A DNA stretch of 57,552 bases, from the NCBI RefSeq assembly GCF_029250625.1, contig NZ_JAQXEX010000031.1; one strand, 5' to 3'. Below the pieces are notes generated by a model. That model was not told the origin of the DNA and made no database searches. It saw nothing but the letters and a program-made list of their open reading frames with translations. Positions 5,783 through 23,955 of the stretch are shown in pieces (position 1 is the first letter of the stretch; every line of letters starts with the position of its first letter). Made by a program: the position numbers and the translations under genes. Source of the DNA: Poseidonia sp. GTDB lineage: Archaea > Thermoplasmatota > Poseidoniia > Poseidoniales > Poseidoniaceae.

Positions 5783-7900
5783 TCATTCCAGAGTGGAGTC
5801 GGGGTGGATTTTAGAGAAAAATCTTCGAGCAAAATGCCCTGTTGATTCTGGCCCGCTTGATTCGTTCATTCGCAGGTCGTCTGGGAAACAAGAGGCATAC
5901 GTTCGCTCGGTAACTCGTCGGTCCAACAGGACGATGAGCGCCCTATCTCCAATCGAACGAATTGGACGTCCCATCGCTTGTAAAATGGAATTGATCGCCG
6001 GCTGAGAAACGGTATACCTCCACGCGAGATTCCTCCCAAAGCGCTCTTCAGCATGCGTCTTGAGCGCAGATGACAGTACCGAAGGCGGTGAATTTGGGAT
6101 GCCAATGCACGCCACTGCATCCAGTGCACCACTGTGATAGTCGACCCCTTCAGAAAGGCGGGCATTGAATACGCCAGCAAGTAAAATGCGCCGGCCTGCT
6201 TTTTTCTCCTCAAGGAGCGTTTCCACCACTTGGTCCAAATCTTGTTTGGTCCAGTTTCGGTCTTCAACCATCATCCGAACGCCAGAGAAATGAGCTTCAG
6301 CGACAGTGGAGTTGAGCAGTGCATAGGATGGAGCAAATACGGCTACGTTCCCCGGCGTCGTGTCGATGAGTGATTGAATGTGCTGACGCATCAAATCCGT
6401 GTTTTGAGGGGTCCGTTCGGTATACTTTGTCGTGACGTCAGAGGCCACCAATACAGGGCGTCGCATAGCGGCAAAAGGTGATGGGTATGCTACAGCAGTG
6501 GTCCTGGCAGTCGGTAGCGCCAAGATGTTGGCGTACATTGTAGGTGGATACAGCGTCCCGGACATCAGTATGGCTCCAGCCGAACCGGTGAGAACAGGCT
6601 TCGAGACCAATCCAGGGTCAAGCAAGTGGGTTGTGATTCGACCGTCCTTTCCCTTTGTATCGTACACCATCGTCATTGCAGTTGTGGATCCGAAACGGAT
6701 GAGACAATCCAAAATTTGGGCGACGCGATGTGCGTTTGGCTCCATTGGATTTCCATCATCTCCAGCATCCATGTCGACATCCACGGTTGAAAGGATATCT
6801 CGCAGTTGATGGATTCTGACGGCAGGGTCAATTCCATGCTTACTTTTTTGCACAGGGGGGGAATTCAAATTCTTTTGACCGACAATTCCGTCGACTTCAT
6901 CACAAGCACGGTGGAATACCTTGAGGAGGGTTTCAACCTGAACTTCACACTCTTCCTTGTCACCGGTTAAGGATGAGCGAAGCCGACTGAAAAAATCTGC
7001 AAAACTCTTTCTGGATGTTCGAATCACCTCAAATGCCCAGTAGGCCAAATCATGGGTCGCTGCAAGGGTTTCTCCCCCAGGCATGTTCATGGATTGTTGA
7101 AGCGTACCGACGTACTCTTCCAATTCAGCAAACGTGTTCCTGATCATGGTCTGTGTAAGTCGTTTCTCAAGCGTGAGCCGAATGCGGTCGGGAAGGTTGT
7201 GTGCTTCATCAACAACGATAATGATGTCCTCAAGGGAGAGGTCCATGGCTTTCAAACTTGAATCCCGAACGCCTTCATCAAAAAGGTGGTTGTAATCTCC
7301 GACGAACACATCTGCTCCGTTCACGGCTTCGCGGGCCACTTTCCAGGGGCATGCTTGGGTCACTTCACCGTTGACAGTGTGGGTTCGGGTAAGGGATACG
7401 AGTTCATCGACGTGGAGGGGTGATTCAAGGATTCGCTCCTTGAGCCCTGGTGCGGTGGTAATCCAAGGCCTGCATGACCTTGATTTACGTGCTTGGCTGC
7501 ACATGAGGGAAAACACAACTGACGATTCCTTGGCGAATTCCTGAACACACATCCCTGCCTGTCCGACCATATCCACGAGTCGGATGGGTGCCATTCCAAC
7601 CCGTTGCTGGTTGATTTTACGAACGGTATCAACCACGATTCGATGCTGGGTTTGTCGAGAGGTGAGGAAGAAGACGGTTTTCCTTTGAGGTTGTTGGCTT
7701 GCAACCTGAAGGGCTGCGGCGAGAGATGCCGCTGTCTTTCCGATCCCCGTAGGGGCTGCAGCAAGATGGTAGCCGCCTTGTTCAAGAGCCTTGATGGAAT
7801 CTTGAATCATCTCAAGTTGGCCAGGCCGTGGTTGTGTGTGGGCAAGAAACGGGAATTGCGGTGGTTGAATCACCTCAATCTCGTCGTTCATACCGCTCAT
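5783..7900 (-). CDS. xpd: XPD/Rad3/DinG-family Fe-S ATP-dependent DNA helicase
   Basis: Q motif RPGQ, Walker A APTGIGKT, four Cys of the Fe-S domain, DEAH box, SGTL, motif VI QAMGRPIR. The start may be ATG 7891. Confidence 0.9.
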   Translation of the reverse strand: MSGMNDEIEVIQPPQFPFLAHTQPRPGQLEMIQDSIKALEQGGYHLAAAPTGIGKTAASLAAALQVASQQPQRKTVFFLTSRQTQHRIVVDTVRKINQQRVGMAPIRLVDMVGQAGMCVQEFAKESSVVFSLMCSQARKSRSCRPWITTAPGLKERILESPLHVDELVSLTRTHTVNGEVTQACPWKVAREAVNGADVFVGDYNHLFDEGVRDSSLKAMDLSLEDIIIVVDEAHNLPDRIRLTLEKRLTQTMIRNTFAELEEYVGTLQQSMNMPGGETLAATHDLAYWAFEVIRTSRKSFADFFSRLRSSLTGDKEECEVQVETLLKVFHRACDEVDGIVGQKNLNSPPVQKSKHGIDPAVRIHQLRDILSTVDVDMDAGDDGNPMEPNAHRVAQILDCLIRFGSTTAMTMVYDTKGKDGRITTHLLDPGLVSKPVLTGSAGAILMSGTLYPPTMYANILALPTARTTAVAYPSPFAAMRRPVLVASDVTTKYTERTPQNTDLMRQHIQSLIDTTPGNVAVFAPSYALLNSTVAEAHFSGVRMMVEDRNWTKQDLDQVVETLLEEKKAGRRILLAGVFNARLSEGVDYHSGALDAVACIGIPNSPPSVLSSALKTHAEERFGRNLAWRYTVSQPAINSILQAMGRPIRSIGDRALIVLLDRRVTERTYASCFPDDLRMNESSGPESTGHFARRFFSKIHPDSTLE

Positions 7901-7915
7901 GCGATGACGACCCTC

Positions 7916-8215
7916 CTAAAGGATTGGGATTGAGCAGGATGGCTTACGCTGGTTCGAACTTGATGTGCCCAGATATGTGGGGGCTGGGCACGGGAACCAC
8001 CAACTCAGCAAGCTGGAGTGGAATCGGAGTCCCCCTGGCCGTCATCCAAGGGGGGGGTTGTGGGGTTTTGGTTGGGGTAACCAGGGCCAAGGCGTGCATG
8101 ACGGGCACGCTGACACAATGAGGCAAAGCCATGCAAGTTTGACCGAACTTGCTTGACCGTTGGGGTGGCTCCACTTAGGTTGTATCCAGAGTTTTGCCAA
8201 ATCATCCCATCCCCT
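7916..8215 (+). ncRNA. Unidentified highly structured non-coding RNA candidate (~295 nt)
   Basis: Intergenic, G-rich and without a credible ORF. Terminal helix 7921-7963/8175-8212, at least five hairpins with G-U pairs favouring the + strand, and complementary loops CCGTCAT (8039-8045) and ATGACGG (8098-8104). Confidence 0.6.
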
Positions 8216-8229
8216 CCGCTCTCTCACCA

Positions 8230-8604
8230 TTATTCTTGGTATTCACTGCGTCGTATCGTTGCTGCTCTGGACGCCTCCAGGACTGCATCGAGTGTGTTAT
8301 TGATCGGCGCCAAGGACGCTGTTGCCTTGGCGATGTAGAGTTTGATTCCTTCTTGAGCGGCGATTTCTGGAGTGACTCCAAGCAACTCGTAGAGTTTCCC
8401 AAGTTGTTGTTGGTCGTGGCGACCCAACGGAATTCGGATGGTTTCCATATCCTGCAGGAGTGGGCGGTTGTGGAGGTATTCTTGGATGGCCATTCTTACG
8501 ACATCCGAACGGTTCCTGGAACCCTTGAGCCCAACTTGAGCATCAAGCAGTGCAAGATCATCCTCAGTGATTCTGAGTGATACTGCTGTGGTTGGTTGGC
8601 TCAT
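8230..8604 (-). CDS. Ribbon-helix-helix (CopG/Arc/MetJ family) transcriptional regulator
   Basis: AVSLRITEDDLALLDAQVG...NRSDVVRMAIQEYL is an RHH signature; a second RHH-like segment (TIRIPL...) follows. GGAGG upstream of ATG 8604. Confidence 0.8.
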   Translation of the reverse strand: MSQPTTAVSLRITEDDLALLDAQVGLKGSRNRSDVVRMAIQEYLHNRPLLQDMETIRIPLGRHDQQQLGKLYELLGVTPEIAAQEGIKLYIAKATASLAPINNTLDAVLEASRAATIRRSEYQE

Positions 8605-8639
8605 CTTGGTCCCTCCGTTATCCATAGACAGATGCGGGC

Positions 8640-8697
8640 GACATATAAGTGTAACTGTATAATTACGATTTGTCATTAATTGTATTACAATTGAATT
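8640..8697. promoter_or_regulatory. AT-rich promoter/operator region with a 15-bp palindrome
   Basis: AATTGTA-T-TACAATT at 8678-8692 and GTAACT-GTAT-AATTAC at 8651-8666, between the divergent RHH and TerB-like genes. Confidence 0.5.
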
Positions 8698-8764
8698 CAG
8701 TCGCTCTCTGAGTTCATCGTAAAACGACCCAAGATTGAAAGAGAAGTGGGCGGAACCACGGTCC

Positions 8765-9211
8765 ATGCCTCTTGTTCCAAGCCGTGGCCTCTATCTTTAT
8801 CTTGAAGTTCTTAAAATCGCATATGACGATGCCATCGTTACAGAAGATGAAGCACAAATCCTCCACGTCCTTTCGCAATGTCTTGGAGTTGCCCCGGCAG
8901 ATACTGCGGAATGCCGCTCCGTAGTTTTAGGAGAAGTTCCCTCGCCGTTTGAGGACGATGACTCTTTTGGAGGGCACCACATTGGTGACGTTACAACGTA
9001 CCAATCCACTCTTATCGCCGCTCTTGACGATGATGTCATTTCTGAAGATGAATGGGCCATGCTTGACCATTTGCGACAAACGATTGGAGTCCAGGAAGAT
9101 CAGCACGCACTCATAGAGGAAGCAATCCGTGCTATGGGTGAGATTGACGCCAAAGGACGAAGGCGTATTGAACGGCTTGAGCGCTTCATCACCGTATGCC
9201 CTTATCGTTGA
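8765..9211 (+). CDS. TerB-like (tellurite-resistance domain) protein with two internal repeats
   Basis: Two copies of the motif: IAYDDAIVTEDEAQIL..L...LGV and AALDDDVISEDEWAML..L...IGV. Confidence 0.6.
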   Translation: MPLVPSRGLYLYLEVLKIAYDDAIVTEDEAQILHVLSQCLGVAPADTAECRSVVLGEVPSPFEDDDSFGGHHIGDVTTYQSTLIAALDDDVISEDEWAMLDHLRQTIGVQEDQHALIEEAIRAMGEIDAKGRRRIERLERFITVCPYR

Positions 9212-23881: not shown

Positions 23882-23955
23882 CGGGCCTGACGGGGTTCGA
23901 ACCCGCGACCATCGGATTAAAAGTCCGACGCTCTACCTGACTGAGCTACAGGCCC
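23882..23955 (-). tRNA. tRNA-Lys(UUU)
   Basis: Reverse complement GGGCCTGTAGCTCAGTCAGGTAGAGCGTCGGACTTTTAATCCGATGGTCGCGGGTTCGAACCCCGTCAGGCCCG folds as a cloverleaf. Anticodon TTT, no intron, CCA not encoded. Confidence 0.97.

What the first reader, a model, noticed from the sequence alone, without database searches (positions are those of the whole stretch)
7916..8215. Unannotated ~295-nt structured RNA with a perfect 7-bp kissing-loop pseudoknot
Seen: hairpins 7965-7972/7984-7991, 8031-8038/8046-8054, 8064-8073/8079-8088 (three U-G pairs), 8092-8097/8105-8110 and 8133-8140/8145-8152. Closing helices are 8057-8062/8114-8119 and 7993-8001/8164-8172, with a long interrupted terminal stem 7921-7963/8175-8212. 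The 7-nt loops CCGTCAT (8039-8045) and ATGACGG (8098-8104) are exact reverse complements. G-U pairs mostly favour the + strand, and a TTCATA box at 7887-7892 would place the start near 7916, divergent from xpd. I cannot find the SRP helix-8 motif or the RNase P CR-I/CR-V motifs. Inference: a new archaeal ncRNA class, or a very divergent known one.
Basis: partly seen in the sequence, partly recalled or inferred. Interest (0 to 1): 0.8.

Follow-up and report, generated by a model that had tools for sequence, protein, structure and literature searches.

The report
Folded small-ORF RNA of marine archaea
The gap between two genes of a Marine Group II archaeon holds a conserved, pseudoknotted RNA that also carries a conserved small open reading frame on the strand opposite to the one first proposed, so it looks like a structured, probably translated RNA and not a plain non-coding RNA.

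Summary
The hairpins and the 7-nt loop-loop complementarity are real. On 59 orthologues, 48 pairs in 7 helices are 91.5% paired, against 84.7% in shuffles and 37-40% when partners are slid. No shuffle out of 500 reaches any of five covariation measures. The kissing loops occur in six fully compensated versions.

The "TTCATA box" is the xpd start-codon region.

No Rfam family matches. SRP RNA and RNase P RNA lie on other contigs.

The main correction is a conserved 59-69-aa ORF on the minus strand (8005-8205), preceded by GGAGG. It is open in every orthologue examined. Gap blocks are multiples of three in 11 of 12 cases inside it and 5 of 27 just outside. Peptide constraint is weak; nucleotide constraint is strong.

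The unit sits directly downstream of an RHH gene in both main families of Poseidoniales. RNA-library contigs from three studies cover it. Its 5' module recurs in a second, non-coding locus.

It may correspond to "Tan1" (Hou et al. 2016), which I could not test here.

Verdict: a structured, probably translated (dual-function) RNA that is new to Rfam.

The parts
8230..8766 (-). RHH (ribbon-helix-helix) protein gene. The element always lies directly downstream of it.
   Evidence: Pfam RHH_1, E = 1.1e-4. An RHH homologue sits immediately upstream of the element in every locus where both could be seen. Contigs from two RNA libraries bridge its stop codon into the element.
8203..8228 (-). Conserved 5' module: GGUGAGAG (8228-8221), a short variable spacer, then GGAGGGGAUGGGAUG (8217-8203). 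It contains a Shine-Dalgarno-like GGAGG and the ORF start codon.
   Evidence: Almost invariant in 59 sequences. The pattern is found in 129 of 140 genomes of the family and 68 of 114 of the sister family, and a reversed-pattern control rarely matches. The same module occurs at a second locus with no conserved ORF.
8005..8205 (-). Small ORF, 66 aa here and 59-69 aa in the family, including the stop codon at 8005-8007.
   Evidence: Open in 19 of 19, 20 of 20 and 59 of 59 loci. The profile matches 135 of 149 family genomes, and no listed family match has an internal stop. Gap blocks are multiples of 3 in 11 of 12 cases inside it and 5 of 27 outside. In unpaired columns third positions vary most (p = 0.008).
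8133..8152 (-). Hairpin H5 (8133-8139 with 8146-8152).
   Evidence: 7 of 7 pairs change on both sides; 85.2% of cells paired.
8092..8110 (-). Hairpin H4 (8092-8097 with 8105-8110). Its 7-nt loop, 8098-8104, is one partner of the pseudoknot. It encodes the Arg-Ala-Arg-x-Ala-Arg stretch.
   Evidence: 95.5% of cells paired; 3 pairs invariant and 1 with a change on both sides. In genus g13 the stem shows a U-A to C-G compensation at two synonymous sites; I read this by eye from the sequences, and no script counted it.
8068..8084 (-). Hairpin H3 (8068-8073 with 8079-8084). It is deleted in some lineages.
   Evidence: 4 of 6 pairs change on both sides; 89.1% paired. Where it is absent, the deletions are in frame.
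8030..8054 (-). Hairpin H2 (8030-8037 with 8047-8054). Its loop, 8039-8045, is the other partner of the pseudoknot.
   Evidence: 5 of 8 pairs change on both sides; 96.0% paired. In genera g12, g16 and g19 a hairpin with different arm sequences appears at this place although the peptide there is not conserved; I read this by eye from the sequences.
8039..8104 (-). Kissing-loop pseudoknot: 8039-8045 pairs with 8098-8104.
   Evidence: 95.8% of cells paired. Of 75 sequences, 53 have a perfect 7/7 complement in six versions and 11 have 6/7. Of those 11, 9 have a G-U wobble when read in the minus (mRNA) sense, 1 an A-C and 1 a U-U.
7996..8169 (-). Possible closing helix C2 (8164-8169 with 7996-8001), enclosing most of the ORF.
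   Evidence: 84.7% paired, but only 1 of 6 pairs changes on both sides. Plausible, not shown.
7965..7991 (-). Hairpin H1, 3' of the stop codon, with a conserved C-rich loop (CCCCCACA).
   Evidence: 7 of 8 pairs change on both sides; 92.6% paired. The loop CCC is at least 90% conserved.
7926..7960 (-). Variable region containing a lineage-specific hairpin. Probably the 3' end of the unit.
   Evidence: The sequence varies and several lineages can form a hairpin here, some with GNRA loops in the minus sense (read by eye). Indels here show no multiple-of-3 bias. No formal pair count was made.
7908..7925 (-). Conserved motif just upstream of xpd. It is not part of the element and is probably the xpd promoter or ribosome-binding region.
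   Evidence: Conserved in all loci. It persists upstream of xpd in two sister-family genomes where the element lies about 3.4 kb away, after RHH.
5783..7900 (-). XPD/Rad3-type helicase gene. It is the downstream neighbour in this family only.
   Evidence: Pfam Helicase_C_2 5.6e-27 and DEAD_2 1.2e-17. It is not adjacent to the element in L134, L135, L166 and L167 of the sister family.

Best explanation
The gap holds one transcription unit on the MINUS strand. It starts at or just upstream of the RHH stop codon and ends before the xpd promoter region.

It is a compactly folded RNA made of:
- a conserved 5' module;
- hairpins H5, H4, H3 and H2 inside the reading frame;
- a 7-bp kissing interaction between the H4 and H2 loops;
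- a 3' hairpin, H1, with a C-rich loop.

The same RNA is the mRNA of a small protein (66 aa here). The model of that protein has one central Arg-rich helix with low-confidence tails at both ends.

Selection acts on both levels and is stronger on the RNA fold than on the peptide. I therefore read it as a dual-function RNA. I think it works mainly as a folded RNA particle, probably bound by a factor that recognises the shared 5' module and/or the C-rich loops. The fold also makes the transcript stable and limits ribosome passage.

Shown: conservation, covarying helices and pseudoknot, frame preservation, linkage to RHH, presence in RNA libraries, and a second non-coding copy of the module.

Inferred: the strand of the folded RNA (from the ORF, its leader, and the wobble pattern in the pseudoknot), actual translation, and any activity in trans or any binding partner.
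For: CONSERVATION. Identity in the gap is 0.65-0.92 per 50 nt against 0.40-0.81 in the coding flanks. By blastn the stretch is present in 23 of 24 other genomes of the genus and in 143 of 200 other genomes of the family.

STRUCTURE. See the counts under the observation check.

ORF. It is open in 59 of 59 aligned loci. It is also present in all 16 more divergent loci, one of them cut by a contig end, and in 5 of 5 genomes where the profile or blastn had missed it. The profile matches 135 of 149 family genomes with no internal stop in any listed family match. Gap blocks are multiples of 3 in 11 of 12 cases inside the ORF and 5 of 27 outside. Codon-position variability in unpaired ORF columns is 0.317/0.275/0.397, p = 0.008. 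SD-like motifs precede 14 of 51 long ORFs in the window against a 7.3% background.

RNA-LEVEL CONSTRAINT. pS is 0.40 against 0.62-0.79 in the neighbouring genes, and codon-position variability within the genus is flat at 0.22/0.27/0.29. Paired ORF columns show no periodicity (p = 0.23). By my reading of the sequences, hairpin H2 is kept in other genera where the peptide is not. In other lineages G-rich and C-rich hairpin arms dictate Gly/Arg and Pro/Ala runs of the peptide.

STRAND. In 9 of the 11 pseudoknots with 6/7 matches the odd pair is G-U in the minus sense, against 1 A-C. GNRA/UNCG tetraloop hairpins number 23 in the minus sense against 12 antisense.

EXPRESSION. 15 runs recorded as RNA hold part of the stretch; all the holding runs together come from 9 studies. 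Three contigs from three studies cover 8023-8292 with no differences, and two of them bridge the RHH stop.

SHARED MODULE. It occurs at a second locus with an 8-10-bp closing helix and no conserved ORF.
Against: - The peptide-level signal is weak: dN/dS is 0.42 against 0.09 and 0.23 in the neighbours, and two other frames give 0.53 and 0.67.
- Stops are scarce in every frame of this GC-rich stretch, 0-4 per frame.
- The peptide matches no Pfam or NCBIfam family. Its AlphaFold model is poor: mean pLDDT 57, one helix.
- There is no direct evidence of translation.
- Over all 48 pairs, wobble pairs do not discriminate the strands (91.5 against 90.6%; H3 and H5 lean to the plus strand). The tetraloop count is crude.
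- Contigs cannot show strand, ends or level.
- The loop-loop pairing is not evident in genera g21, g12, g19, g16 and g20.
- Single-sequence folding energy is not better than shuffles.
- The orthologues are related, so the shuffle counts are not probabilities.
Confidence: 0.58

Rival explanations
1. A pure non-coding RNA on the minus strand, possibly the MG-IIa counterpart of Tan1. The open frame would be a by-product of a GC-rich, conserved fold and would not be translated into anything useful.
For: Nucleotide constraint exceeds peptide constraint. Peptide segments follow the G-rich and C-rich hairpin arms. The peptide has no known family and a poor model. The same 5' module, including its AUG, heads a second RNA that has no conserved ORF. 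Hou et al. 2016 describe an abundant 229-nt MG-II ncRNA with a complex structure (passages read). In the sister family the unit measures about 240-260 nt.
Against: Gap blocks are multiples of 3 in 11 of 12 cases inside the frame and 5 of 27 outside. The frame is open in every orthologue across two families, although its length ranges from 58 to about 110 aa. Start and stop positions are kept. Where the module's second AUG is displaced, an AUG is still kept. Third positions vary more in unpaired columns (p = 0.008).
Confidence: 0.17
2. One reading: the folded, functional RNA is transcribed from the PLUS strand, antisense to a small minus-strand gene, and acts as an antisense or independent ncRNA.
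For: Watson-Crick helices exist on both strands. The wobble balance over all helices is a tie, and H3 (1 G-U against 18 A-C in minus sense) and H5 (8 against 18) fit the plus strand better. The orientation of the RNA-library contigs is arbitrary.
Against: No promoter-like feature supports a plus-strand start: the TTCATA box is the xpd start codon, and 7908-7925 travels with xpd. The pseudoknot wobbles favour the minus sense 9 to 1. Tetraloops lean to the minus sense. The conserved module with GGAGG and AUG, and the ORF, read on the minus strand. The module's second copy has its closing helix and T-rich tail in the same sense. H3 is the helix that some lineages delete.
Confidence: 0.1
3. An ordinary small-protein gene whose mRNA structure acts only in cis, for stability or to throttle translation of the small protein within an RHH-smORF(-xpd) operon. 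The RNA would have no function of its own.
For: The unit lies in an operon-like arrangement on one strand. Two contigs bridge RHH and the ORF. I saw no oligo-T terminator between the ORF and xpd when reading the sequence. Structured coding regions that regulate translation are well known; that is recalled, not tested here.
Against: The fold is more conserved than the peptide it would regulate. Hairpin H1 with its conserved loop lies outside the ORF. The 5' module recurs in a non-coding RNA. The stretch assembles in very small RNA libraries of 12-77 million letters, which hints at high abundance.
Confidence: 0.15

Closest known systems
Tan1 (Thalassoarchaea ncRNA 1), Hou et al. 2016, Sci Rep 6:35470 (PMC5069720). 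I read passages and the legend of Fig. 5; the figure and supplements were not available.
   Same: It is an RNA of Marine Group II archaea, abundant in metatranscriptomes (ranked 5th in their RNA-Seq), with a complex conserved secondary structure, absent from Rfam, and 229 nt long. The sister-family version of the present unit measures about 240-260 nt from module start to the end of the terminal hairpin, or 216-235 nt from the AUG. Small RNA libraries hold our element.
   Different: Tan1 was described as non-coding and only from Ca. Thalassoarchaea (MG-IIb), from six homologues. Neither its sequence nor its locus is given in the text, so identity is untested. Not in the passages I read: the ORF, the RHH linkage, the kissing loops, the order-wide spread and the second module-bearing locus.
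Bacterial dual-function RNAs such as S. aureus RNAIII/hld, B. subtilis SR1/SR1P and E. coli AzuCR/AzuC. The details are recalled; reviews PMC12612679 and PMC12310071 and paper PMC8915982 were seen only as a search listing.
   Same: One transcript combines a conserved small ORF with an RNA structure selected in its own right. The C-rich unpaired loops (CCCCA[AC] is 2.4-fold enriched and all 133 occurrences are in unpaired columns) recall the C-rich loops of RNAIII that pair with Shine-Dalgarno regions; that comparison is recalled, not tested.
   Different: This one is archaeal. The ORF is longer (59-69 aa), and the structured part IS the coding region, whereas in those RNAs the two parts are mostly separate. 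No target or base-pairing activity is known. There is no sequence or structural homology.
Type I toxin mRNAs of the hok/sok type, which have conserved long-range folds across a small ORF (recalled).
   Same: A small ORF sits inside a phylogenetically conserved fold, possibly with a closing helix that encloses the frame (C2).
   Different: The peptide is hydrophilic and has no transmembrane segment. The locus is inherited vertically at a fixed place across an order. No antisense RNA is known. There is no PADLOC match.
Archaeal SRP RNA and RNase P RNA
   Same: Similar size (about 300 nt), GC-rich, archaeal, multi-hairpin.
   Different: There is no Rfam match even at E up to 10. The genome's own SRP RNA (116.8 bits) and RNase P RNA (227.2 bits) lie on other contigs.

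Membership tests
Archaea_SRP (RF01857) | Match to the covariance model at or above the gathering score of 96.5 bits | tested here: not met
   No match in the window at gathering score or at E up to 10 in 7850-8280. The genome's SRP RNA is on contig C17 at 116.8 bits.
RNaseP_arch (RF00373) | Match to the covariance model at or above the gathering score of 84 bits | tested here: not met
   No match. The genome's RNase P RNA is on contig C92 at 227.2 bits.
Any Rfam 15 family (4227 models) | Covariance-model match | tested here: not met
   The only hit is a chance snoRNA match of 13.7 bits, E = 3.1. Five loci holding the second module-bearing RNA gave no match at the module; the two sub-threshold hits lie elsewhere in one locus.
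Tan1 (Hou et al. 2016) | Sequence or structure identity with the published Tan1 alignment | not testable with these tools
A search for Tan1 plus Thalassoarchaea returns only that paper.
Tan1 (Hou et al. 2016) | About 229 nt, MG-II, abundant in metatranscriptomes, complex conserved fold | tested here: inconclusive
   The sister-family unit measures 240-260 nt. 15 runs recorded as RNA hold part of the stretch, and three contigs were laid on it. The fold is supported by covariation. All of this is compatible with Tan1 but not specific to it.
Dual-function RNA (functional class) | A small ORF that is translated | tested here: inconclusive
   The evolutionary evidence is met: frame-preserving indels 11 of 12 against 5 of 27, open in all orthologues, SD-like GGAGG, third-position excess p = 0.008. 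There are no ribosome-profiling or peptide data.
Dual-function RNA (functional class) | RNA-level function beyond coding | tested here: inconclusive
   A selected fold is shown, as are constrained synonymous sites. No target, partner or trans activity was tested.
Toxin-antitoxin or defence pair (RHH antitoxin plus small toxin) | Match of either protein to known defence or TA models; patchy, mobile distribution | tested here: not met
   No PADLOC match for the RHH protein or for two versions of the small protein. The locus keeps a fixed position across an order, which is unlike a mobile module.

The most novel reading that the evidence does not exclude
All Marine Group II archaea (Poseidoniales) carry an abundant riboregulator or RNP of a new kind. 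It is a pseudoknotted RNA whose folded body doubles as the coding region of a small, largely disordered protein. Its invariant 5' module (GGUGAGAG ... GAGGGGAUGGGAUG) would be a recognition element shared with at least one other small RNA. That would define a lineage-specific RNA-protein or RNA-ribosome recognition system, with the neighbouring RHH protein as a candidate partner.
Probability: 0.3. Interest if true: 0.8.

Novelty: new variant of a known kind. Interest (0 to 1): 0.64.

Why it matters
Poseidoniales (Marine Group II) are uncultured (recalled). In one Red Sea sample they made up 24% of the 16S reads (PMC5069720 abstract). Almost nothing is known about their RNA biology.

This locus gives:
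- a covariation-supported RNA fold with a kissing-loop pseudoknot, present in both main families of the order and absent from Rfam;
- a rare case, and to my knowledge an unusual one in archaea, in which the folded RNA and a conserved reading frame occupy the same nucleotides, so two layers of selection can be separated site by site;
- an invariant 5' module shared with a second small RNA, which points to a common factor.

It also matters for annotation. The ORF is listed in public MAGs as a hypothetical protein with no hint of the RNA, while an RNA-only reading would miss the ORF.

If it is the same as Tan1, an RNA known so far only as an abundant transcript gains a locus, a partner gene, a structure and a coding capacity.

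Tried and rejected
- Complex prediction of the RHH protein (alignment A4) with the small protein (A2): verdict 'no answer', score 0.00. This is no evidence either way.
- Read laying: run X5 laid nothing. The three contigs do not cover 7300-8022 or 8293-8900. Parts without cover are not evidence of transcript ends.
- RNAalifold on the first 19-sequence plus-strand alignment gave a poor consensus that missed H4 and the pseudoknot. I replaced it with an all-pairs scan and explicit pair counts.
- Searching for loop complementarity from single-sequence MFE folds was too noisy. I replaced it with a motif-anchored table.
- Assigning the strand from wobble pairs: my early impression that they favour the minus strand did not hold over all 48 pairs.
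I repeated it with the single window protein.
- ESM Atlas: no usable hit.
- The RHH profile against the PDB gave only a faint NikR-type RHH match, E = 0.07.
- AlphaFold model of the peptide: mean pLDDT 57, too weak for a fold search.
- PADLOC: no match. The fourth query in that call was a mis-specified stretch of L134 and should be ignored.
- A first permissive helix scan produced mostly noise.
- ORF-profile hits in the sister family were marginal (E = 4e-4 to 9e-3), and 6 of the 8 had internal stops. I rejected them as homologues; the true sister-family copies were found through RHH and the module.
- The search of earlier findings returned nothing for this place.
Full report
WHAT IS THERE

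The finding lies in a 329-nt gap (7901-8229) between two minus-strand genes. One is an XPD/Rad3-type helicase (5783-7900; Pfam Helicase_C_2 5.6e-27, DEAD_2 1.2e-17). The other is a ribbon-helix-helix protein (8230-8766; RHH_1 1.1e-4).

Record titles of near-identical loci name the organism as Candidatus Poseidonia / Poseidoniaceae, that is Marine Group IIa archaea of the order Poseidoniales.

KNOWN RNA FAMILIES ARE EXCLUDED

- Rfam 15 gives only a tRNA in the whole window at gathering score.
- In 7850-8280 at E up to 10 it gives only a chance snoRNA hit of 13.7 bits.
- The genome's SRP RNA (116.8 bits, contig C17) and RNase P RNA (227.2 bits, contig C92) lie elsewhere.
- The single sequence does not fold better than dinucleotide shuffles on either strand (z = +0.84 and -0.82). 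Folding energy alone therefore gives no support.

CONSERVATION

- By blastn the gap is found in 23 of 24 other genomes of the genus at 69-81% identity, and in 0 of 16 genomes of other families.
- In a family-wide draw it is found in 143 of 200 other genomes: g1 42/42, g22 39/41, g14 33/37, g21 27/38, g18 2/2, and none in seven further genera.
- Identity to the window per 50 nt is 0.65-0.92 in the gap against 0.40-0.81 in the flanking coding sequence.

THE STRUCTURE IS REAL

I aligned 59 orthologous gaps from five genera in minus-strand sense. The alignment (A3) was made with MAFFT and was not fitted to any structure.

Forty-eight pairs in seven helices gave 91.5% paired cells, against 84.7% in column shuffles and 37-40% when partners were slid. 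Twenty-eight pairs changed on both sides against 13.2 expected. The covariation score was 0.227 against 0.118. No shuffle out of 500 reached the observed value on any of the five measures.

Pairs changed on both sides, by helix: H5 7 of 7, H1 7 of 8, H2 5 of 8, H3 4 of 6, loop-loop 3 of 7, H4 1 of 6, C2 1 of 6.

The sequences are related, so these counts are not probabilities. The slid control keeps relatedness, however, and it is far lower.

Over 75 sequences the loop-loop pairing is a perfect 7/7 complement in 53, in six versions:
- CCGUCGU/ACGACGG, 17 sequences
- CCGUCUU/AAGACGG, 15
- CCGUCAU/AUGACGG, 12
- CCGUCGC/GCGACGG, 5
- CCGCCUC/GAGGCGG, 3
- CCGCCGU/ACGGCGG, 1

It is 6/7 in 11 more, and 5/7 or less in 6 (g21 three, g12 two, g14 one). 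In 5 sequences (g19, g16, g20) my pattern found no H4-type hairpin.

- Closing helix 8057-8062/8114-8119: 9, 9, 48, 53, 10 and 34 of 59 cells canonical.
- The outer H3 pairs: 1 and 0 of 59.
- The long terminal stem 7921-7963/8175-8212: 57% canonical on either strand over 28 pairs.
- The claim that G-U pairs favour the plus strand: it is a tie, 91.5 against 90.6%.
- The TTCATA promoter: it is the reverse complement of the conserved xpd start region.

THE UNEXPECTED PART: A CONSERVED ORF ON THE OTHER STRAND

ORF 8005-8205 (minus strand, 66 aa) starts at an AUG that lies 7 nt after GGAGGGG. The evidence that it is a real reading frame:

- It is open, with the stop in the same alignment column, in 19 of 19 loci of the genus and 20 of 20 loci of four other genera, at 59-69 aa. 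That is 59 of 59 in all.
- A profile of it matches 135 of 149 family genomes, with no internal stop in any listed family match.
- It finds only 25 clusters among 1.84 billion protein representatives, 23 of them small proteins.
- Distinct alignment gap blocks are multiples of three in 11 of 12 cases inside the ORF. The exception is at the start codon. In the 79 nt just 3' of the ORF the figure is 5 of 27.
- SD-like motifs precede 14 of 51 long ORFs of the window against a 7.3% background, so the organism uses such sites.
- Public MAG records already list the ORF as 'hypothetical protein'.

THE PEPTIDE IS ONLY WEAKLY CONSTRAINED

- Within the genus, codon-position variability is flat at 0.22/0.27/0.29, against 0.24/0.15/0.61 in XPD and 0.29/0.24/0.52 in RHH.
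- pS is 0.40 against 0.62-0.79, and dN/dS is 0.42 against 0.09 and 0.23. Other frames give 0.53-0.93.
- Splitting the ORF columns resolves this. Unpaired columns show the coding signature (0.317/0.275/0.397; third-position excess p = 0.008). Paired columns show none (0.169/0.232/0.239; p = 0.23).
- Stops are scarce in all frames here, 0-4 per frame, so openness alone is weak evidence. The indel pattern is the strong argument.
- The peptide has no Pfam or NCBIfam family.
- Its model has one central helix (residues 16-38, the Arg-rich stretch) and low-confidence tails, with mean pLDDT 57.

SPREAD AND LINKAGE

- More divergent genera (g13, g19, g12, g16, g20 and a g22 subclade; 16 loci) all carry the ORF. 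One copy is cut by a contig end. In most of them the ORF follows the conserved module GGUGAGAG...GAGGGGAUGGGA...AUG, directly after the RHH stop codon.
- In five genomes where the ORF profile had found nothing (genera g15, g17 and sister-family g7), the unit is present right after the RHH gene. In g7 it lies about 3.4 kb from xpd.
- In the sister family, 3 of 5 genomes have the unit upstream of xpd: a longer ORF and GC-rich hairpins, several with UUCG loops. The RHH query matched the upstream gene in 2 of those 3. The motif next to xpd remains in the other two, so that motif belongs to xpd.
- Small-genome sister-family genera carry RHH, module, a 58-64-aa ORF and a terminal hairpin.
- The constant neighbour is therefore RHH, not XPD.
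- By pattern, the module occurs in 129 of 140 family genomes, 68 of 114 sister-family genomes, 1 of 1 and 2 of 2 genomes in two small families, and 1 of 43 in a further family of the class. The reversed-pattern control rarely matches.
- That the sister family is MG-IIb (Thalassarchaeaceae) is my recollection of the taxonomy, not a tool result.

A SECOND LOCUS

- Many genomes, including four of five checked in the window's own genus, carry the module a second time.
- There it sits inside an almost invariant core of about 65 nt, closed by an 8-10-bp helix. An upstream hairpin of variable sequence precedes it, and a T-rich tract follows.
- No conserved ORF is present: the frames differ between genera, and one version would encode only 4 aa.
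- Rfam has nothing at the module.
- The window's own 93%-complete assembly holds only the first locus.
- The module is thus an RNA motif in its own right and not only a ribosome-binding site.

STRAND

The ORF, its GGAGG and the module read on the minus strand. Among pseudoknots with one odd pair, 9 of 11 have G-U in the minus sense. GNRA/UNCG tetraloop hairpins are 23 against 12 in favour of the minus sense (a crude count). Against this, the wobble balance over all helices is a tie, and H3 and H5 lean the other way. I put about 85% on the minus strand as the functional RNA.

EXPRESSION

Twenty listed runs hold part of the stretch. Fifteen are recorded as RNA, and the holding runs come from 9 studies. 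Some runs are very small, 12-77 million letters. Contigs from three studies lie on 8023-8273, 8035-8292 and 8033-8227 with no differences, and two bridge the RHH stop codon. Contigs show presence in RNA libraries. They do not show strand, ends or level.

LITERATURE

Hou et al. 2016 (PMC5069720; abstract and passages read) report Tan1. It is an unknown 229-nt ncRNA of MG-II archaea, ranked 5th in their RNA-Seq, with five homologues in Ca. Thalassoarchaea and a complex predicted structure.

The text gives neither sequence nor locus, the figure is not held, and the supplements (Table S5, datasets) were closed. In the sister family the present unit measures about 240-260 nt. Identity is plausible, and I put it near one half, but it is untested.

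Searches for Tan1 plus Thalassoarchaea, for Marine Group II plus noncoding RNA plus metatranscriptom, and for Poseidoniales plus small protein found no other description. Papers on dual-function RNAs were seen only as a search listing.

HOW IT MOST LIKELY WORKS

Shown:
- One conserved unit after RHH, with a fold selected at the nucleotide level and a reading frame selected for openness.
- A hairpin with a conserved C-rich loop beyond the stop codon.
- C-rich CCCCA[AC] motifs: 2.25 per sequence against 0.93 in shuffles, with all 133 occurrences in unpaired columns.
- A module shared with a non-coding RNA.

Inferred: the RNA is made from the minus strand, is stable and abundant, is translated into a small and largely disordered protein with an Arg-rich helix, and acts mainly as a folded RNA or RNP. 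The module and the C-rich loops would be contact sites for a protein or for G-rich RNA such as Shine-Dalgarno regions. The kissing loops would compact the coding region and limit ribosome passage.

Rivals:
- A pure ncRNA whose frame is a by-product (0.17).
- A cis-only structured mRNA (0.15).

NOVELTY

The element is not in Rfam, and the protein is in no family library. Outside the possible Tan1 overlap, I found neither the fold, nor the pseudoknot, nor the ORF-fold overlap, nor the RHH linkage, nor the second module-bearing RNA in the papers I could search. I rate it a new variant of a known kind (dual-function or structured coding RNA), in a lineage where no such RNA is characterised.

Noticed in passing
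Second loci, for example L150:380-500 (+), L142:780-900 (+), L159:1460-1580 (+), L144:510-630 (+), L149:1490-1600 (+): A second, very conserved small RNA candidate carries the same GGUGAGAG...GAGGGGAUGGGAUG module inside an 8-10-bp closing helix. An upstream hairpin of variable sequence precedes it, and a T-rich tract follows. It has no conserved ORF and no Rfam match at the module. Many copies lie only 420-820 nt from a contig end. The window's own assembly lacks it.
   Followed up: partly
window 7973-7983, 8057-8066, 8074-8078, 8160-8168 (minus strand): C-rich CCCCA[AC] motifs recur in loops and linkers: 2.25 per sequence against 0.93 in shuffles, with all 133 occurrences in unpaired columns. 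Other genera show the same motif in an N-terminal hairpin loop. They could be contact sites for a protein or for G-rich RNA.
   Followed up: partly
window 8230-8300: The last ~20 codons of the RHH gene are unusually conserved at the nucleotide level (0.92 and 0.78 identity per 50 nt), including synonymous sites. RNA-library contigs extend into this part. It may hold the promoter or the 5' end of the element's transcript.
   Followed up: no
window 7908-7925: A conserved motif (CGACCCTCCTAAAGGATT on the plus strand) lies 8-25 nt upstream of the xpd start. It persists upstream of xpd in sister-family genomes that lack the element there. It is probably the xpd promoter (TATA-like TTTAGG) and/or its ribosome-binding site (GGAGG).
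   Followed up: partly
L118, L123: Two contigs that encode the small ORF sit in MAG records titled as bacteria (a Rhodobiaceae bacterium and Salipiger bermudensis). They are most likely archaeal contigs binned into the wrong genome.
   Followed up: no
L142:680-780, L150:270-330 and equivalents: Upstream of the second-locus RNA lies a further conserved block (GAGCATAYGATTTGTAAG) and repeated AATGTTAC-TTTT boxes that look like archaeal promoters. There may be yet another small transcript.
   Followed up: no
P0004, P0011, P0012, P0020, P0021: Several database versions of the small protein switch frame part-way and end in unrelated sequence. These are frameshifted copies or assembly errors. They are the only apparent exceptions to frame preservation, and I did not examine them at the DNA level.
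   Followed up: no
window 23882-23955 (minus strand): A tRNA gene at 76.2 bits, the only Rfam match in the window.
   Followed up: no
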